NCBI RefSeq assembly: GCF_021869535.1
Contig: NW_026262723.1
Span: 3,472,001 to 3,536,000 of the forward strand
Length of the DNA: 64,000 bases
Direction: 5' to 3'
Source: Mytilus californianus
Lineage: Eukaryota
Shown here: piece by piece, positions 44,301-64,000 of the stretch
How the letters are laid out: every line of letters begins with the position of its first letter
Numbering within the stretch: the stretch's first letter is position 1
The notes under the pieces: generated by a model
What the model saw: the letters and a program-made list of their open reading frames with translations, nothing else
What the model was told of the DNA's origin: nothing
Databases searched by the model: none
Translations under genes and position numbers: made by a program

Positions 44301-46636
44301 CTGCTGTTCCTCAATTTTTGACACTTTTACCTATTGTGTCTGTTTGTTTTGCTAACACATAGTTGTCAATATAATGGAATTTTACCCGACTGTTATACAC
44401 GTGAGAGGTTTAGCTAGCTATTAAACCTGGTTTAATCCAACATTGTCTACATAATGAAATGCGTGTACCAAATCAGGAATATGACAGTTGTTTTCCATTC
44501 GTTTGATGTGTTTGAGCTTTTGATTTTGCCATTTGTTAAGGGATGTTACGTTTTGAATTTGCCTCTGAGTGCGGATTTTTTTTAATTTATTTTTTATTGA
44601 ATCAAAGAACATCATGTGCTTTTTTTTTATATCAAATAATGAAATCCTTATGAAACAGTTTTTCTTCGTGAAGCAAATAAAACCAAAAGTCGAAATAAAT
44701 GTTATCACTCAAAATGTAATTTATATTATTCTTCTTTGACTTTTGATTTTGATTGCCTGCCTTGAACATGGTTACTCTTTGTGTATCATTTGTTTATAAA
44801 AATTAGACACATTTCAACATTCATACTTTTTATGAAAGGATACATACAAATAAATCATTTTTTTTTATTTTAGTATTTTGTGCATGTCCAAATAATTGGA
44901 GTCATTATGAAGACAAATGTTTCTTTCTAAGCCGTGACAACGAGACATTTGCCGATTCACTGGTGAGTTAAAATGAAAAGAGCGGAGTGAGGGTTCCGAA
45001 ATTAAATGTTTATAAATTTGTCTTCAAATTATGATTTCGATTGTCTTACTTTGATATAGAATATGTCCTATTCTCGATTTTGAATGAGTGTGGATTCCAA
45101 TGATGAATGATGTATGCAAAGCAGAAGTTACTAACCCTTTAGACACATCCAGTCTGGCTTCTTTTAGAGTTACTGTGAATCTGTGAATCGCTCAGGTTTT
45201 TTTTTTTTTTGCTCTGTTTTTTTTTACCTTGTTTTGTATCTTATTAGTAAATTTATGAGATGTGAACATCGGTAAACTAATGTTGCCACTTTTTTAACAT
45301 CACATGATCTTGTATATGAAATCAATAATTTTGAATTCACAAATAACAAGCGCAAGGGACTGCAACCTTAGAATAAGAACAATGACGTAATATTAGGAGC
45401 GGGAAATACATCTACACAATGTAGTATGTTTTATCATGGTTATATCAAAGCACTTGGTAATGTAAGAATATCGGTTTGTTTCACTGTGAAAGCTGTTAAT
45501 CGTATAATATCAACATGATCAATAAATACTCGTTATGTAATTTGAATGTATTATTTTTCTATCTTTTCTCAGAAACTGTGTGAAGTGATTGGACGCCAAT
45601 ATGGAAGATCGGCATCATTAGCTACCGTTGATGATGCAAAAACGCAACAATTTCTTACAGATTTAATGATCAAAATAAGTAAGAATGAGTAAATGTTAGA
45701 TTGTACATAAATGATGAAGCACAACTTTTCTCCTCTATCTTCCTGAACCTGGAAAAGAATATGAAGCGACTTGTTTAAAGTACTATTAAGCTTGGCTGTC
45801 TTAGTGGCTATAGTTTTGTTTTTTATGGTCTTTAAGTTAGTAAATGATTTAATATATGAATATCAAAGTTTCGTATGCATAGGAGCTTTTCTGCATTTTG
45901 TCGGAATAAAAATATGGCTTTTGTTTACTTCCTTATCATTGAGGTTCTTTCCTTTCTTAAACTGATTTACTGAGTCTTAGTTGTTAAGAATTTACTTTTT
46001 AAAAGTTTGTTGACCTCATTGTTTGCATCTAAAAACAAGCCGAATACTTTAACCTAGTCGTTATGAAGAAGTTCTATGATTCATCGTACAAGATATTCAG
46101 TTAACTGCGATTAGAAAACTGCAATAAAACCATTACAAATGGCAGTTTAATTTGTAAAAAGTATAAAAATAAGAAATAAGAATTCATAGAAAACTTATGC
46201 AGAAATGAAAATTCCGGTTAGACTGAAAGCAATCAATTCTACTATAATTTTTATATTATGCTGTTCATTTATTAGCCGAATAAATACAAACAAAAACTTT
46301 ACAATTCAACATTGAAAATGTATATTTGATGGATAGAATTCTGCATGTTAATTTTATATGAATTTGTTTAGAAATTCACAACCATTTTTTTTTGTTTTAT
46401 CAGATTCCATTGGAATGTACATAGGATTAAATGACCTTGTAACTGAAGGGACATTTCACTGGGTAGCCAACGGTAAGCAGGCAACATACTTTAACTGGGG
46501 ACCTACCCAGCCAAACAACAGAGGGGGAAACGAAAACTGTGTAGCTATGCGAGTTGATCCAGTTATAGGCTTCAATTATTCTTGGACAGATGGTCCTTGT
46601 ACAGTTCCGACCACCTACATTTGTGAAATGGTGTAA
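41377..46636 (+). CDS. Secreted single-CRD C-type lectin A (perlucin-like), 159 aa; join(41377..41428,44874..44962,45573..45678,46404..46636)
   Basis: All introns GT-AG with phases 1/0/1, 480 nt in total. Signal peptide MSSVLMKLCILAFVATV; CPNNW..KCF; YIGLND; QPN; ENC; WTD; final C. Confidence 0.95.
41551..43361. mobile_element. Non-autonomous KolobokP-type composite transposon: 469-bp LTDR (41551-42019), 873-bp internal region, 469-bp LTDR (42893-43361)
   Basis: Two direct repeats identical by eye, each with TIR GGTATA(A/G)AACCACTAATTCA; TTAA only at the outer ends (41547-41550, 43362-43365). Confidence 0.9.
43660..43840 (+). mobile_element. Penelope-like 3' end relic
   Basis: SDIIKRHQCLSRKLMN..KFIGKYQNLVDKYS. 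Confidence 0.5.
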
Positions 46637-54418: not shown

Positions 54419-57400
54419 ATGTCTCCTGTTTTGATAAAACTTCTTGTTTTGGCAGTTGTAGGAACAGCTGGTAAGCGTAATTATATATTTCATTTAATGA
54501 ACTGCCTTTTCAAGCTTTTAAAGATATACGTATATCACGTATATCTTATAACAAAATACTGATGATTACAGCTAAATAATAGTTCATTTCCTGTTTTTTC
54601 CTCGATGGAAGACACTAAAGTAGAACCTATGACAAACATGATGATTTAAAAATGTTTACTTCTCATTTCTCAACAGTAATATATGCTCTGTTCCAACTTA
54701 TGACGTTTACACATCTAAGCTAATACATTACACTCGTGCACGCTCCAAAGATACGAACTTCATTGACATAAGTGTGCTCCTTACACAAAAAACTAAACCC
54801 TCAGACTGATGAGGAAGAACGATTGAAATCCATATCAAATAAGTTTTATAGTCACCATTTTGAATCGGTCGACTGATATGCAATATCTGTGTCTCAACTC
54901 ATTTGCCACATGTCTGTGTTTCAACTCATTAGCAAAATGTCTTTTTCTCAATTCATTAGCGACATGTTTTTAAAGTCTTAGATCTTCAGCTACCGGAATA
55001 GCTGTTTAATCTGTAGTTGTACCGATGGTGTCCTATTCCCGTTGATGACATTTTGAGTGACTGTTGCTTCGCATGGCGGAAGAAGCATGCGTATATTTGT
55101 AGTAGGAGACGCCTACCCTGTCGACGCCTAATACCTCAATCATTATCGTGATGATGCAATTCAATTAGTTTGTTTTGGTTACCTTTGTTTCTTCTCGATG
55201 AAAGATATTTGAACTACTGTCGCCTTAGCTTGTCTTCATTATACAGATTATTTTTGTAATTTACACATTTACACTTCTTTGTTCAATGATGTGACACATA
55301 CTAATTCAATATTATTACTATTTCAGTATTTTGCACATGTCCAAATGGATGGAATCATTATGAAGACAAATGTTTCTTTCTAAGCCGGGACAATGAGACG
55401 TTTGGAAATTCTCTGGTGAGTTGAGATAATGATCAAAAGGTCTGAAATATACTAACATATTTACTACGTTTAAATCGTTCTTTTGTTTGAAATAACTTTC
55501 TCATCAGATTAAACAGTTTGATGGTAACCGCCAAGTAGCTGACGGGTCGATTAAATACATGTCAAGCTATAATTTGTTATCAATTACTAGACTTAGTACT
55601 CCGGAAGGACAAGGTGACCTGTGATGTCGTAATTTAGCCGTTTTGTTTTGATTTTATAAAACGGTTCTATTATATGTATTTGTCTTCCCAATTCGTTGTT
55701 GTTGTACGCACTTGATGAAGTTGTTTTTCAATTGGTGAGACCCAAAATTACAAGACAGGTAAATAAAGGTCGTATGAAGGTCCCTTAGATTTTTAAAATC
55801 ATTACATCCATCATATAAAAAAAAAAACCTGATGCTATAACGTTTAGCACAAAATGTGTGTCTGGAATAACTCTAACAAGTATATTTAACTGCTAAGAAA
55901 AACAATATAAATAAGGTTAAGCATTGACTACATTGTTTATTGGGGTAATTTATAAACAGATAATCAACCTTTAACTTTGTGATATGCCTAGGAGGGATAT
56001 GGAAAGAAACATGAACATTTCAATTCCATCATGGGAATCTATTCAAATAGTACTATGTTTACAAACTATATTTATTTAATATTTACAATAATGTGGATTC
56101 ATTATTATTCGTTGGATAGCAATTTTCGTGGATTTCGTGGTTATATGTTAACCACGAAATTAAAAATTCAACGAATGGCAAATTTACTATAGGCTTGTAT
56201 GCAGATATTGTCAAAAACCACGAAATCAAATATCCACGAACATGCAAGTTTTCCTTAATACACGAAAATTGGTACCCACGAAAATAAATGAATCCACAGT
56301 AACATTTATTTTTTTGCAGATGCTCTGTGAAGTAATTGGGCGCCAGTATGGAAGATCTGCGTCTTTGGCTACCGTTGATGATGCCAAAACACAACAGTTT
56401 CTTACAGATTTAATGATCAAAATAAGTAAGAATAAATTGGCAACATGTATTATAACTATAATGATCCAAAACTTTTCAGTCCCTCTTTCTTGCTAAAGAT
56501 TTTTATGATTTAAGGGAATCATAACTATTGTTTTTATGCAGCAAAGCTTGGTTGTCGTAAGATCTAAAGCTTCGTCTTGTTAGGCTCTATATGGTAATTG
56601 GGATTTTGATATAAATACTTCATGTACACGGGAGTTTATCTGCATGTATGTAAGACATTAAATCTGTGTTTTTCTAATCGTCAAAAAAGTCCGTTATAAA
56701 CTTAAAAAAAAAAAAGAGAGCGTATTATCTGTTGAGAATCTATTACTTAAGAAGGTTTCAATTATTAATCACTTTATTGGCTGCATTTAAAAAGAATTTA
56801 ATTTACCAACATGCTGTAAAGCATAAATCTTATTGTTCAAAGTAGAAGACCTTCAGATACAACAGCAATAAAACCACTTTTATGAAATGAGCATTTCTGT
56901 GTATTTTACACAATGTTTTATGGGCATAATTTTTCTGTACATTTTTTGCTTTTCCATGTATCAGATATTTATTCGGAAAATATAAAGTCAAAGTCGAAAC
57001 AAAACACACACAAAACCAACCAAAGGGAGAAATAAACAGATATAAATCAACAGCGAACACACTCACATATCTATATCTCCCACAATAAGGTCGACATGGG
57101 ATGCTGAAATCTTTCTCATTTACACTTATACCATTAGTTGGAAATCAAAGGAAATCTTATACAGAAATATAACTTCATACTGTTTTCATGCTATGCTGTT
57201 CACCCGTTTGTCAGAATCAAGCACTATTTAGCATAACTTAGATAACAACGGAAGTTTGTGAATAGATATTTCGTTATATGAACTATCCATGTTTGTTAAT
57301 ATAAAAAATGTTAATCTATCTCAAAGTCATTTTCCTTTGTTTAATCAGATTCCATTGGAATGTACATAGGATTAAATGACCTTGTAACTGAAGGGACATT

Positions 57401-57581
57401 TCATTGGATAGCCAATGGTAAGCAGGCAACATACTTTAACTGGGGACCTACACAACCAAACAACAGAGGAGGAAACGAAAATTGTGTAGCTATGCGAGTT
57501 GATCCAGTTATAGGCTTCAATTATTCTTGGACAGATGGTCCTTGCACAGTACCAACCACCTACATTTGTGAAATGGTGTAA
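54419..57581 (+). CDS. Secreted single-CRD C-type lectin B, 159 aa; join(54419..54470,55327..55415,56320..56425,57349..57581)
   Basis: Exon sizes (52/89/106/233) and phases identical to CTL-A; canonical splice sites; open frame. Confidence 0.95.
56089..56301. mobile_element. Tc1/mariner-type MITE in CTL-B intron 2
   Basis: TIR TGTGGATTCATT / AATGAATCCACA; TA at the right end; internal CCACGAA repeats. Confidence 0.7.
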
Positions 57582-58616: not shown

Positions 58617-61107
58617 GAGAGAGAGATTAATCTTCAGTTATCTTTTATCAATTAACCTCGTAGTCTATTACCTCAAAGCCGTAGCCGACTAACGTGAAAT
58701 GTGTAGATCCAGAAAATACTGTAACCCTGACTTCCATTTTTATTGAAAGTAGACAAAATAATATAAATTTACAGATGATGCAACAATAAACTTCTGTAAT
58801 TTCTGGGAAATCCATCAGAATTTCTATATCATTTAAAAAACAATGGACCACTGAAAGGAATTGATACTCATTACGACACACAAAAACACAGAATATTCAA
58901 ATGGTCTTCCAATAAACATTACAATAAAATTCAGCTCCAGTATGTTGTTTGATGGAATGGATGGAGATTAACAGAACACACAATATACACCGAAACACCA
59001 GATATAACTTCTAGTTCTAACACTTTTCCTAATCTATACCCAAACACTATCTAATTTCTGATATGAAAAGCATGTAATCAGAATAATCCATAGGTTTGAT
59101 TTACAATAGCGAGTAATGGTACATATAAGTTTTATTTAAAACATTTCGAAAAAGGAGCATTATTGTGGAACATTAACACTGACGGTTTTTTGCGCGCTTC
59201 CTATACAAAAGCCTCACCACTGACGGTCGAATCCCAAGAATTAAAAAAAGAGAAATGAAATACGAAGTTGAAGAGCATTGAGAAGATAACTTATCTTTCA
59301 TAGAATTCAAAAATACCTAACTAATCCTACATAAATGAATTAAGGTCGGAAATAAGCGACCTCTAGTTTGCTGAATACAGTTTCCGGTGTAAATTGATAG
59401 CTAAGTATACACTGATTTCTATAATATATGGTTTCTATATTTTGTCACAAAGTAAGGGAGCTTATTTACAATTTCCGGTTGGAAGTTACAACGACCGATT
59501 TGATATAATAGGTTACTGCATATAGATTCCAAATATAATTGGTTGCTAGATGTTTTTACATAAAATTAATGCAAAAAATAGCTATATCATGTTTACAGAA
59601 GGTCAGTATTGTAGATTACCTTTCAAGATCATATGTCTTCCAATCTAATTCAAAGGAACCAATTGCTTTATTATGTTTAAATATCAAATTAAAGCAAAGG
59701 TCCAAATCTACAACGTCAAATTCATCTTCTATCTTGACCTTAATTCTATGTTCACAAAGCAAGGATCTCATATTCAAAATGTTTAAATAATAAATACCAA
59801 ACTTAAAGTTAAATTCAAAACCGGAGTAGGTTCATGAAACATGACCAAAATCAAACGTCATATAACGACTATATCAACCAACACATCGAACGGCGAACAA
59901 CTGTAGGATTACTAACTTGGTACAGGCAATGTCCGAAAAAATGGTGGGTTAACCTGGTTTTATTGATAGGTAAACCTCCTACTTGTATGACAGTTGTTTC
60001 TAGTCCCTTTATATTTCCAAAATGGGGAGCAACCGTAACAGACTAAATATGTTAATATGACAATTGTTGGGATTTTGTGTAAACAATCATCACATAAGGT
60101 TGATTGGTTTGAACTTTTGATTTTGCCATTAAATAAAGGATTTTCCGTTTTAAATGTTCCTTGGAGTTCGGAATTTTTGCTATTTTACTTATACAACACG
60201 ATTAACTAAAATGTCCAAACAAACAAACATATAAAGCTTATGAATAAGTCAGCTATTTTGTTTTACTGTAGTTAATAGTAAATCTGACAAAGACGCCAAT
60301 AATAAAAGTAATTGTAGTTGATAGTACATGCAGGATATAAAAACATAATGCCGTACAGTATACATTTCCTGATAAAGTACGAATTATGTAAAATATAAAT
60401 ACAAGGATAAACAAAATGAAAACAACATTGTATATACCTTATGGGTCCGAATTGCACCTCTGCACCCACTTGCACCAGGAACGCAAAAAGCCAAAAACCC
60501 GATTGCTGAATAGACGTAAAAGGACCAAAAAGGAACATTATAGCATAAAAAAAAAAATGATGGGAAAAATGTAATGAAATAAAAAGATAAACATTTGTAG
60601 CACCTACAATCCAAAGACCATCTTGTATTATTTGTGAAGGAGACACTGAATATTTATGTATAAGGTCTTGATACTTTCCGATGACCTGTTCAGGAAAATT
60701 ATGAAACGTGGAGTTTTGTCAATACAAATATCCAAGATCGATCGAAACAATAAATACGTTCTGAAACAAAATATAGCAACAAACAATATATATGTATAAA
60801 ACAGAAGAAACAAAAATCACCGCTTAACCTAACACAAATTTTAGGGTAAACTAAAGTACTGGAGAACTGAGAGTTCTGCCAACCTTTCACTTTTGATCAT
60901 TTTTTCTACAAAATGGAAAATTAAAGTATGTCATCAATCTATTTATAAAATAAGTAAGGAACCGGTTCCAACCAGTTTTCATAAAACACCCTAAACCCTA
61001 GTGAGAGTTCTGTCCCACTATGCAGAAATGTGTTTTTTTCAAAAAGGAGTGAGAGGGGTTGAAATTGAAAAAAAAGAAGAATAAAAGACATAGGTATAGT
61101 AAGTAAA

Positions 61108-63070
61108 ATGAATACGAATGTTGTTGAAACGGTATAACAGTTAAGAAGTATGGCTAAAAATGCTGGTCTTCTAGGTACTCTAGAATGAAGAAAGATGAGC
61201 TGGTAGAGTTGATTGAAACAAAGACGGAACAAACATTTAAGCGTATTCCTAAACCAGCGTCATGATCGTTGAAAAGGTTGAAAGGTGTAGGAAGATTACC
61301 TATAAATCAACTGTTGACAAAGGTAGGTGAGAAAATCAAGAAAGATCAAGAGTCCATGATTCGGGTACATGAACCCATTAGACCCATAAAAGGTGTATTG
61401 ACTACCTGGAAAATGACATCGGATGTAGAAATGGACATCCAGACCTTTCTTGAAGTAACACAAGGGAAAAGGATGGACATAAATTAATGTGGTGTTACAC
61501 TGTATTTTCTTGAAAATCAACCCCACAGGTAAAGAGGACGATGAGAATGAGAGACACTTCAATTCGGGAAATCGAACTATAACCGAAGCCACCGACCTCA
61601 TTGAAACTTTGAAAGAGATGGACCTAAAGATCGGAAAAAAGATTGCCGAGTGGACTTCTGAGAAGAATGGGTGGACATTGTGAAGGAAATCGTGAAATTA
61701 CAACTTAACATCAACAAACACACACAGTTATCTGGTTTGCAGTATGTAGATTTACCAAAATGGATCAAAGACAAGACAGCCGTGATTAATGTTCAAAACA
61801 AAGATGATAAGTGTTTTAAATGGGCAATACTTGCTGCCGTGCATCATGAGGAGGTAGACCAAACGAAAACACAAAGGGGGACTCAGTACTGTAGATGGAA
61901 CAATGAACTACACCTAAAAGGATTAGAATTCCCCGTAAGCCTAAAGGATATTAGCAAGTTTGAGAAAATCAACCCTTCCTTGGCAGTCAATGTGTATGGA
62001 ATCAATGATGACAATGAGAAACACACACTACGATATTCAGATTTTGCTGAAAAGCGGGATAGAGACAATCAATTGTTGCTGATAGAAGGTGAAGGTAAAA
62101 GACATAAGTGTTGCATAAAAACATGTCTAGCATGTCTAGACTACTGTCGAATCAGATCTCGGATCATAACGGTAGACTTAAATTTTGCTACAAGTGTCAA
62201 TGCCACTTCCACAGCAAAGAGGTATTGAAGGAACATAATATAGTATTGCGTAAACCACAAGGCAGTTAAGATCAAGATGCCGGTAAAGGAGCCTACCAAA
62301 GCTTTGTGAACCACGCCAGTTCGACGAAAGTTCCTTTCTCGGTTTATGTAGACTTTGAGTGCTTTATCGAAAAAGTAGAATCCAAACCAGTGGAAACCGT
62401 TGCAGACAAACCACACACCAGAATGTATCAAAACCATATACCATCGGGATTTTGGTATTACATTAAATGCTTTGATGAAAGTGTCTTTACTAAGGCGCCG
62501 GTACTTTATTCTGTGCAAAAAGAAGGAGAAGATGTGGCGCAGATTTTTGTTGAAGGACTTGAGAAAGATATCATAGTCATTTACTCCGAGAATGACTTCA
62601 AAAAACCAATGGTGATGACTACGGAAGATAAGAGTGATTTTAAGGCTGCCACACAGTGCTGGCTCTGTGACAACGCTTTAGGAAAGGACAAAGTCAGAGT
62701 TCACTGTCACTTCACCGGTAAGTATAGAGACGCAGCGCACAACGAGTGTAACTTGAAGAACAAAGTACCAAAGTTTATATCCGTGTGTTTTCATAATCTA
62801 GCTGGGTATGACATTCATCTTTTCATTAAGAATTAATGTGTAACAGAGGGACCAATTACATGTATTCCCAACACCGATGAAAACTACATTTCATTCACCA
62901 AAGGTATTCAAGTAAGTGAATACAAAGCAAAGGATGGTAACATGAAACCACTGTACCAATATTTGAAATTTGTATACAGCTTCAAATCTATGAGTACGAG
63001 TTTTAGAAAAAAAAGTAAAACCAACCACTCGTGAGGATTTTAAAAATATGGAAAAAGTGTTTGGTGACCT
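61108..63070 (+). pseudogene. Protein-primed family-B DNA polymerase, N-terminal half, of a Polinton/adintovirus-like element (frameshifted)
   Basis: N-terminal HeH/Rho_N-like helix pair; GWTL..LNINKH.QLSGLQYVDLPKWIKDKTAVINVQNKDDKCFKWAIL; FPV..KDISKFEKINP.LAVNVYG; Zn-finger-like FCYKC..FHSKEVLKEH; ExoI YVDFE; EndoVII-like CWLC..RVHCHFTGKYRDAAHNECN; ExoII FHNLAGYD. Confidence 0.85.
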
Positions 63071-64000
63071 ACCGCTAGATCCTGAATTATACAAGGTTAA
63101 CCCATCTACCTCAGAAAACAAACGAGACATTCAACTACGTGAAATTATTGATAAAAGTAAAATGGAATACATTGTGTCCCATCTAGATGATTTTGAATTG
63201 GGAAGTCGATGCATTAACGGGGTTAAGTTGGAAAAGAATGCACAATTAAAATTAATGAAGGATTACTTGTCAAGGGTTAACAAGCGAGGAGAATGTGTAA
63301 TGAGATATTATCAAAGAAATAGTTTTGGTAGATACTGGACTGGTTAAAAACTATATATTCAAAACATGAGTCGGAAAATCAGATACACCTTGTGTTCAGA
63401 CATCATATATTACTTTAACATGAAAAATGCTCATCCAACTTTACTGTCATGGTTTTGTTATGAAAATGGAATCGAGTGTAAAGGATTATATGCTTATATT
63501 GAACATCGAGAAGAGTACTTAGCTATTTTAATGAAACACACAGGTAAAAAATTGAAAACAACACGTTTATTTATTTCATGCGTCCGAAGCGCTTTTTTGG
63601 ATTTACCTTCATCAGGAACGCTCAAAGCCAAACATTTGAAATCCGAGGGATGTATAAGTACCGAAACAATTGAGGAGCTATATGACATAAATACCTAAAA
63701 CAAATAGCCAAATTCATCTAAGGTCAACTGTAAAGACACTTTAGCCATCATTAACGGTAGACGAGAAGCACAATACAAGGATGATCCTGAATGGTACAAA
63801 TCTTACGGTAATGAGATTAAACACATTACTGAATCCATCATTGCTTTACGATCAGACTTACATAAATTAGCTAAACAATCTAAAGAAAAGAAAGGTAAGA
63901 AAGAATACAACATTGGAGGAACTACCGTTAATTACATTATGTGTTCATTAGAAAACAGAGTATTTATGATTGCTTTTGACTACTTAAAAAAACAGAACAT
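63070..64000 (+). pseudogene. Family-A-like TVpol polymerase/primase fragment, continuing beyond the window
   Basis: LREIIDKSKMEYI; YYQRNSFGRYW..QNMSRKIRYTLCSD; motif A-like FNMKNAHPTLL; motif B-like KDTLAIING; YNIGGTTVNYIMCSLENRV. Confidence 0.75.
63565..63725. mobile_element. Host short repeat inserted in the TVpol relic
   Basis: TTTCATGCGTCCGAAGCGCTTTTTTGGATTTACCTTCATCAGGAACGCTC interrupts the frame between KHTGK and KDTLAIING; recognised from memory as a common host repeat. Confidence 0.5.

What the first reader, a model, noticed from the sequence alone, without database searches (positions are those of the whole stretch)
62880..64000. pPolB exonuclease runs directly into a family-A-like TVpol: two polymerase superfamilies in one frame
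Seen: after ExoII and the YSFKSMS..EDFKNMEKVFG segment, where the PolB palm should begin, ORF 63048..63347 continues without a stop into LREIIDKSKMEYI..GRYW..QNMSRKIR..NMKNAHPTLL..KDTLAIING..N.GGTTVN..CSLENR. These match my recall of TVpol (Pol-A-related, usually fused to a D5/SF3 helicase). No PolB palm motifs (SLYP, YGDTDS) appear in the window. Inference: either a deletion joining two genes of a virus that encodes both pPolB and TVpol, or a genuine PolB-exo/Pol-A chimeric replicase. Either would be unusual for an animal endogenous virus.
Basis: partly seen in the sequence, partly recalled or inferred. Interest (0 to 1): 0.85.

Follow-up and report, generated by a model that had tools for sequence, protein, structure and literature searches.

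The report
Polymerase nested inside another polymerase
A virus-like mobile element (a Maverick/Polinton) in this animal genome, likely a mussel, carries a DNA polymerase gene with a second, unrelated polymerase domain inserted in frame inside it; the window's copy is broken, but unbroken relatives keep both sets of active-site residues, and the inserted part has moved between element lineages and likely helps start DNA synthesis.

Summary
The junction is real, but it is neither a deletion nor an exonuclease/Pol-A chimera. A ~310-aa TVpol/family-A domain sits in frame between ExoII and ExoIII of a complete Maverick pPolB. PolB resumes about 200 bases past the window end. The window copy is decayed. 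20 of 27 genomic DNA matches cross the junction, and unbroken 1,500-1,720-aa frames exist in this genome and in public data. In one model, phi29 polymerase aligns around the insert (Z 19.5) and family-A polymerases align to it (Z up to 15.8). The insert keeps its catalytic residues and has dN/dS near 0.09. It is patchy: none of 236 other pPolB neighbours carries it. Insert-bearing pPolBs are not one clade (AU p 1e-8), and flanking tracts travelled with the insert. Helicase-free PolA domains also sit at two other sites in other pPolB lineages. Likely role: a tethered primase-polymerase acting on the displaced strand (untested); the rival is a selfish self-copying module. Not found in 8 literature searches.

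The parts
60849..60854 (+). left copy of the 6-bp target-site duplication (5 of 6 bases match the right copy)
60855..61110 (+). left terminal inverted repeat of an ~11.8-kb Maverick; its partner (89.5% identical) lies beyond the window at G000:C143:3544412-3544663
61483..62228 (+). decayed N-terminal part of pPolB: terminal-protein-like segment and vOTU-like protease (Cys motif 61809, His region 62103); labels by motif likeness to PMC11161782, inferred
62270..62836 (+). pPolB exonuclease: ExoI (62345), inserted endonuclease VII domain (about 62645-62755; Pfam PF02945 E 0.006 here, above cut-off in intact homologs), ExoII (62792); stop at 62834
62837..63065 (+). rest of the exonuclease before the insertion site (YSFKSMS 62975, EDFKNMEKVFG 63033); frameshift between the two motifs
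63066..64000 (+). TVpol/family-A polymerase domain inserted in frame into pPolB; continues about 190 bases past the window end; hairpin Arg motif 63327, motif A 63414 (catalytic Asp replaced in this copy), fingers 63741, motif C just beyond the window
63345..63347 (+). in-frame stop inside the insert (decay of this copy)
63550..63732 (.). ~183-bp foreign piece disrupting the fingers region, absent from 5 of 5 sister copies compared; 82% like a stretch of L020

Best explanation
This is a decayed copy of a Maverick/Polinton protein-primed B-family DNA polymerase gene that carries a ~310-aa family-A (TVpol) polymerase domain in frame inside its exonuclease domain, so unbroken relatives encode two polymerase folds in one chain, and the inserted domain likely works as a tethered primase-polymerase. 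Shown: architecture, fold, conserved catalytic residues on both sides, purifying selection, patchy spread with flanking tracts. Inferred origin: the N-terminal PolA domain of a PolA-SF2-helicase replicase was captured without its helicase into a tolerant loop before KGVYPY, then passed between co-resident Maverick lineages by recombination or gene conversion in conserved pPolB flanks. Inferred mechanism: pPolB still starts from its terminal protein and displaces a strand as it copies; that displaced single strand would take the place of the helicase-made template on which stand-alone TVpols are predicted to prime, so the PolA domain would start and extend DNA on it, or re-prime after stalls. 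My odds: nested fusion real 0.97; lateral spread 0.9; PolA catalytically active in unbroken members 0.85; role in the element's own replication rather than purely selfish 0.55.
For: Architecture: the ExoII-to-KGVYPY distance is 340-351 aa with the insert (402 in P0008/P0067) against 26-38 without it (68-72 in four with a small Zn-ribbon). Unbroken frames: L067 1,723 aa stop to stop; P0007 1,644, P0008 1,559, P0012 1,538, P0086 1,505, P0101 1,550 aa. Fold: model of P0020 (pLDDT 85.8); phi29 aligns to model 50-1138 over 519 of 571 residues (Z 19.5, rmsd 3.5) and family-A polymerases to 281-566 (Z 13.5-15.8). Insert model (pLDDT 90.2): Klenow E 4.8e-8 and Z 15.6; Zamilon virophage replication protein E 9e-22, TM 0.72. 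Residues: D277 invariant and R102, D131 at least 90% conserved in 39 rows; RxxxK in 13 of 14 checked. Selection: insert dN/dS 0.08-0.10 in four pairs, against 0.05-0.09 for the PolB part in three pairs; invariant columns 80 of 291 against 153 of 545. TP-like Ser/Thr-Gly site and vOTU Cys/His are kept in most insert-bearing proteins. All pPolB-embedded inserts in the tree form one clade (100/99) among PolA-SF2 fusions. A helicase-free PolA also lies 45 aa after PolB motif C in P0508/P0018 and between ExoIII and motif A in P0468/P0513. In this genome 20 of 20 weak PolA matches examined lie with pPolB pieces. Precedent: CCPol, listed as a TV-Pol, primes de novo only with a partner protein (PMC7581432, passages; PMC10061031, abstract: the partner confers ssDNA binding).
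Against: No activity was measured and no expression data were obtained. Priming by eukaryotic-virus TVpols is a prediction (PMC2579912), and CCPol alone does not prime (PMC7581432). Protein-primed strand displacement needs no second primase (established for phi29 and adenovirus; recalled), and the insert is rare: 0 of 117 and 0 of 119 other nearest pPolBs have it, which a strong general benefit would not predict. Purifying selection and co-transferred tracts fit a selfish module equally well. The model's coordinates could not be inspected, so whether the PolA active site can reach the displaced strand is untested. P0468 rests on two near-identical assembled contigs and was not in the insert tree.
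Confidence: 0.55

Rival explanations
1. The PolA domain is a selfish 'homing polymerase': it copies its own locus, with flanks, into breaks in insert-free pPolB genes, and is kept active for its own spread while the host pPolB merely tolerates it in a loop.
For: Co-transferred tracts: P0101 matches P0095 at 94-100% in most windows of aa 600-1050 (76 and 87 in two) but at 27-76% before and 64-86% after, where it matches insert-free P0528 better; P0083 matches insert-free P0521 at 86-100% except around the site. L072's insert is 78% identical to L070's (dS 1.38) while its flanks are 52-63% (saturated) and group with insert-free L079/L082. 8-9 gains or losses are needed on the PolB tree. Three sites in pPolBs, a gene already known to collect endonuclease inserts (10.1101/2023.08.22.554363; PMC11161782). 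10.64898/2026.10.13.758929 section 13 proposes such self-templating for PolA/AEP genes, as a hypothesis.
Against: No endonuclease travels in the tract: endonuclease VII lies outside the P0101 tract and occurs in insert-free pPolBs too. No intein or intron marks were seen, so the host protein must carry 310 aa. The unit was never seen free of pPolB in this genome (20 of 20 weak matches). Ordinary recombination plus selection gives the same tracts.
Confidence: 0.3
2. The insert is ancestral to this whole pPolB group and was lost many times; it did not spread laterally.
For: All exo-site inserts form one clade (94/89). Counts of change cannot tell gain from loss. Recombination with insert-free alleles would remove it cleanly.
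Against: Clades of the insert tree are rejected on the PolB tree (L072+L084+L070+L024+L026, p 4.5e-48; P0086+P0101, p 0.025; groups were named after seeing earlier trees). The sister insert P0018 sits at another site in a pPolB only 24-30% identical. 236 neighbours lack it.
Confidence: 0.05
3. The insert is removed from the RNA or protein (intron or intein), so the mature enzyme is an ordinary pPolB.
For: pPolBs carry inserts ascribed to intein invasions (PMC11161782, passages). No RNA data were seen.
Against: The frame stays open through both borders in all unbroken lineages. No Cys/Ser...His-Asn ends at the borders (read by eye), no Hint family in Pfam, 0 Rfam matches in 4 loci, and family-A polymerases align over nearly the whole insert model.
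Confidence: 0.06
4. One reading: a deletion joining two genes, or a PolB-exo/Pol-A chimera without a PolB palm.
For: Inside the window alone the sequence looks like this.
Against: PolB resumes after the insert in this copy and in sister copies, several of which reach motifs B and C. No helicase in 60 stretches.
Confidence: 0.01

Closest known systems
Maverick/Polinton pPolB, TP-vOTU-EXO-PALM (PMC11161782, passages read)
   Same: Domain order, ExoI-III, motifs A-C, vOTU Cys/His, phi29-like fold; element with TIRs, 6-bp TSD, rve integrase, A32 ATPase and double-jelly-roll capsid
   Different: A whole second polymerase domain lies inside the exonuclease. The passages read treat PolA-S3H as a replacement for pPolB, not part of it.
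TV-Pol family; PolA-SF3 and PolA-SF2 replicases of virophages and PLVs (PMC2579912, parts 1-2 of 3; 10.64898/2026.10.13.758929, sections 12-13)
   Same: Minimal family-A core with hairpin Arg, two Asp and RxxxK; closest stand-alone relatives are PolA-SF2 (UL9-like) fusions at about 40-52% identity
   Different: No helicase; nested in a PolB exonuclease, whereas PMC2579912 states TV-Pols never fuse to nucleases; found in an animal element
Endonuclease inserts (HNH, VSR) in Polinton pPolBs (10.1101/2023.08.22.554363, passages)
   Same: In-frame domain inserts in pPolB, shared across hosts
   Different: The insert is a polymerase, not a nuclease
Helicase SF1-pPolB and Tlr1-like fusions (PMC12721341, passages)
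   Same: Large fused replicases built on pPolB
   Different: End-to-end fusion with a helicase; one polymerase site
CCPol-MP primase of SCCmec (PMC7581432, passages; PMC10061031, abstract)
   Same: Minimal family-A polymerase shown to prime DNA de novo; the functional model used here
   Different: Bacterial, two proteins, needs the MP partner; homology beyond the shared fold was not tested
Homing endonuclease genes and inteins (recalled)
   Same: Same site in many lineages, patchy distribution, co-transferred flanks
   Different: No nuclease and no splicing domain in the moving unit

Membership tests
TV-Pol / family A polymerase core | Family-A palm-fingers-thumb fold | tested here: met
   Foldseek Klenow E 4.8e-8; VIA Z 15.6, rmsd 4.4, 288 aligned; Zamilon protein E 9e-22, TM 0.72 (that it is the Sputnik V13-type TVpol is recalled)
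TV-Pol / family A polymerase core | Beta-hairpin arginine | tested here: met
   R102 of P0232, at least 90% conserved in 39 rows; GRYW at window 63327
TV-Pol / family A polymerase core | Two catalytic aspartates | tested here: met
   D131 at least 90%, D277 invariant; present in unbroken homologs. The window copy has lost the motif A Asp; assignment of D131 as the catalytic one is by recalled alignment to Pol I
TV-Pol / family A polymerase core | RxxxK motif in the fingers | tested here: met
   13 of 14 proteins matched the pattern, P0025 did not; this region is disrupted in the window copy
TV-Pol / family A polymerase core | Usual context: helicase fusion or stand-alone, never fused to a nuclease (context, not the domain definition) | tested here: not met
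   Nested in pPolB exonuclease; no helicase in 60 stretches
TV-Pol / family A polymerase core | Primase and polymerase activity | not testable with these tools
   Predicted in PMC2579912; shown only for CCPol-MP among the papers read
Maverick/Polinton | Terminal inverted repeats and 6-bp target-site duplication | tested here: met
   Window element TIR 89.5%, TSD 5 of 6; two other insert-bearing elements have 100% and 98.9% TIRs and exact 6-bp TSDs
Maverick/Polinton | pPolB | tested here: met
   PF03175 E 2.3e-18 in L067; phi29 Z 19.5
Maverick/Polinton | rve integrase | tested here: met
   PF00665 in the C24 element. Not found in the window's own element (L016-L018), which is deleted there
Maverick/Polinton | Packaging ATPase and double-jelly-roll capsid | tested here: met
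   PF04665 and PF21738; decayed matches of both in the window's element beyond the window
Maverick/Polinton | Ulp1/adenain maturation protease | tested here: inconclusive
   No such family among 12 frames scanned; several frames have no Pfam match
Intein | Hint domain and splice-junction residues | tested here: not met
Group I/II intron | Catalytic RNA core | tested here: inconclusive
   0 Rfam matches in L016, L067, L070, L072; no RNA reads seen
Homing element | Same site, patchy distribution, co-converted flanks | tested here: met
Homing element | Self-encoded endonuclease that cuts the empty allele | tested here: not met
   None in the moving unit; endonuclease VII is in both allele types and outside the P0101 tract

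The most novel reading that the evidence does not exclude
A helicase-free TVpol domain has become a mobile 'homing polymerase' that invades pPolB genes in frame, at three or more sites, without splicing or a nuclease of its own, and turns them into single-chain replicases with two working DNA polymerases of families A and B: one protein-primed and strand-displacing, one priming de novo on the displaced strand.
Probability: 0.35. Interest if true: 0.92.

Novelty: new variant of a known kind. Interest (0 to 1): 0.8.

Why it matters
pPolB and PolA-helicase are treated as alternative replicases that replace each other in Polinton-like viruses and virophages. Here both catalytic cores are kept under selection in one chain, in animal elements, and the arrangement arose at three sites. 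It gives a natural intermediate for replicase swapping, puts TVpol into animal Mavericks, and offers a soluble test case for the open question of whether viral TVpols prime DNA. It also raises the possibility of gene-conversion spread driven by a polymerase rather than a nuclease.

Tried and rejected
Pfam and PHROGs name neither the window pieces nor the intact insert. Sequence search of PDB with P0001 gave 0 matches at E 10; the phage collection gave none. The IMG/VR scan gave 5 distant loci (22-24% identity), not examined further. No earlier scan findings in three look-ups. A free-standing or MITE-like PolA element, suggested by paired opposite-strand hits, was rejected: 20 of 20 fetched loci are rearranged pPolB remnants (output partly cut; 20 places taken from 135 matches). 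Endonuclease VII as the homing partner was not supported. The careful PolB tree did not finish; searches are quick trees without the mixture model, on chosen subsets (56, 56 and 26 rows of over 300), using rows anchored on P0007; one search drops the first 110 columns after the insert. In one search the insert label is no more clustered than shuffles (176 of 500), partly because nearest insert-free relatives were picked on purpose. Exonuclease-region dN/dS for L076 and L078 rests on 50-81 codons and is not used. No RNA evidence was obtained. Literature: 8 searches found no report of PolA inside pPolB; subscription journals, Repbase, figures (such as Fig. 5D of the 2026 preprint) and all supplements were not seen, and may hold one.

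Full report
Observation. The window is G000:C143:3472001-3536000. The frame 62994-63347 does run from the exonuclease segment EDFKNMEKVFG into LREII and GRYW without a stop. The copy is decayed: a stop after ExoII (62834), a frameshift between YSFKSMS and EDFKNM, stops at 63345, 63696 and 63705, a ~183-bp foreign piece at about 63550-63732 and a lost motif A aspartate. Of 27 own-genome DNA matches to 62900-63400, 20 cross the junction and 7 match only the right side. L019 and L021 share host flank with the window and are tandem duplicates.

What follows the window. The next bases hold PolA motif C 17 bases past the end, then PolB again: LRKGVYP, ExoIII and palm motif A at the equivalents of 64208, 64399 and 64694. 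After that this copy is deleted and rearranged. Sister copies L023, L024, L026, L033 and L034 carry recognisable motifs B and C. No SF2 or SF3 helicase piece was found in 60 own-genome stretches. So the Pol-A-like part is an insert between ExoII and ExoIII. The ExoII-to-KGVYPY distance is 340-351 aa with it and 26-38 aa without.

The element. It is a Maverick: TIR at window 60855-61110 with a partner 11.8 kb away (89.5%), a 5-of-6 target-site duplication, and decayed ATPase and capsid genes; no integrase match remains in this copy. Two other insert-bearing elements in the genome have TIRs of 100% and 98.9% and exact 6-bp TSDs, so the arrangement was present in recently integrated elements. Integrase, A32 ATPase and double-jelly-roll families were confirmed there. 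The host is likely a Mytilus mussel (inference): the cluster of P0007, 96% identical to L067 in the insert, has named Mytilus members.

Unbroken homologs. A search with the insert among longer proteins gave 46 hits: 19 pPolB-embedded, 26 stand-alone helicase fusions (three assigned by my reading, without a Pfam hit) and one Mytilus gene model. Full-length frames of 1,500-1,720 aa keep ExoI-III, PolB motifs A-C and the PolA motifs together. Most also keep the TP-like Ser/Thr-Gly site and the vOTU Cys and His (labels after PMC11161782). The wider library holds 3,856 relatives at E 0.001; only the best 150 were listed.

Fold. In the model of P0020 (pLDDT 85.8), phi29 polymerase aligns from residue 50 to 1138 over 519 of its 571 residues (Z 19.5, rmsd 3.5), while Pol theta, T7, Klenow and Taq align to 281-566. 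The pPolB fold is thus predicted to close around a looped-out second polymerase. The insert alone (pLDDT 90.2) matches Klenow and, more closely, virophage replication proteins (Zamilon E 9e-22, TM 0.72). It has the TV-Pol hallmarks of PMC2579912: hairpin Arg, two Asp, RxxxK.

Selection. Insert dN/dS is 0.09 for L070-L072 and 0.08-0.10 within the L072 family, against 0.05-0.09 for the PolB part. Among 10 representatives, 80 of 291 insert columns and 153 of 545 PolB columns are invariant.

History. All 28 exo-site inserts plus P0018 form one clade (100/99) among PolA-SF2 fusions (the outgroup was not one side of a branch and long branches met among stand-alone rows). The hosts do not form a clade: 9 changes among 56 rows, and monophyly is rejected (p 1e-8). 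None of 117 and none of 119 other neighbours from two searches carries the insert. L072's PolB groups with insert-free families of the same genome, but its insert groups with L070 and the window family. P0101 shares only the insert and short flanks with P0095, and P0083 differs from insert-free P0521 only around the site. The unit therefore moved with flanking tracts. The same PolA clade lies 45 aa after motif C in a distant pPolB (P0508, 1,716 aa; four cluster members show both motif C and the insert), and a 32%-identical PolA lies between ExoIII and motif A in P0468/P0513.

Mechanism. I commit to a tethered primase-polymerase (0.55). Stand-alone TVpols ride on a helicase that makes single-stranded template. 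At each of the three sites the helicase is gone and the partner is a strand-displacing polymerase, which makes such template itself (established for phi29-type enzymes; recalled). CCPol primes only with a partner protein (PMC7581432), a role the pPolB body could fill. All of this is inference. The main rival (0.3) is a selfish module that copies itself into breaks in empty alleles, an idea raised for PolA and AEP genes in 10.64898/2026.10.13.758929; the tracts and the rarity fit it, the lack of a nuclease and of splicing do not. The two are not exclusive.

Literature. Eight searches found no report of PolA inside pPolB. Seen: PMC2579912 parts 1-2 of 3; the 2026 preprint, passages and sections 12-13; passages of PMC11161782, PMC12721341, 10.1101/2023.08.22.554363 (29), PMC7581432, PMC13215967, PMC11348598, PMC3671162; abstract of PMC10061031. 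PMC3671162 calls the combination of pPolB with a primase-helicase uncommon. Figures, supplements, Repbase and subscription papers were not seen.

Verdict. A real, selected, apparently undescribed nested architecture of two polymerase families; both parts belong to known families, so a new variant of a known kind. The window copy itself is a dead relic. Interest 0.8.

Noticed in passing
P0508 aa 1300-1593; P0018: Same PolA clade inserted 45 aa after PolB motif C in a distant pPolB lineage that also has a VSR-like segment (label recalled).
   Followed up: partly
P0468/P0513 aa 873-1171: A more distant PolA (32%) inserted between ExoIII and motif A, inside what looks like a VSR-like insert (label recalled), in a third pPolB lineage.
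   Followed up: partly
P0117, P0118, P0126, P0186, P0008: A ~40-55-aa Cys-rich, Zn-ribbon-like insert lies a few residues before the PolA site, so this loop tolerates inserts.
   Followed up: no
L070, right border of the insert; P0353: A ~60-aa acidic extension between the PolA domain and KGVYPY.
   Followed up: no
L091-L110: Decayed, rearranged fragments of insert-bearing pPolB; many are amplified together next to ~168-bp tandem repeats at many genomic places, perhaps as cargo of another mobile element.
   Followed up: partly
L016:4735-6468 (beyond the window): After palm motif A the window's element has a deletion and a tandem duplication containing inverted copies of window 61490-61947.
   Followed up: partly
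window 46352-46636 and 57345-57581: Two near-identical host exons that look like C-type lectin domain ends (label recalled); the region, element included, is tandemly duplicated about 57 and 110 kb downstream.
   Followed up: no
P0010, P0114: Insert-bearing pPolB fragments labelled as Candidatus Thiodiazotropha metagenome bins, likely host DNA of the bivalve that houses this symbiont (recalled).
   Followed up: no
P0006: Mytilus coruscus gene model joining a MAM domain to the PolA domain, likely a gene-prediction artefact over a Maverick copy.
   Followed up: no
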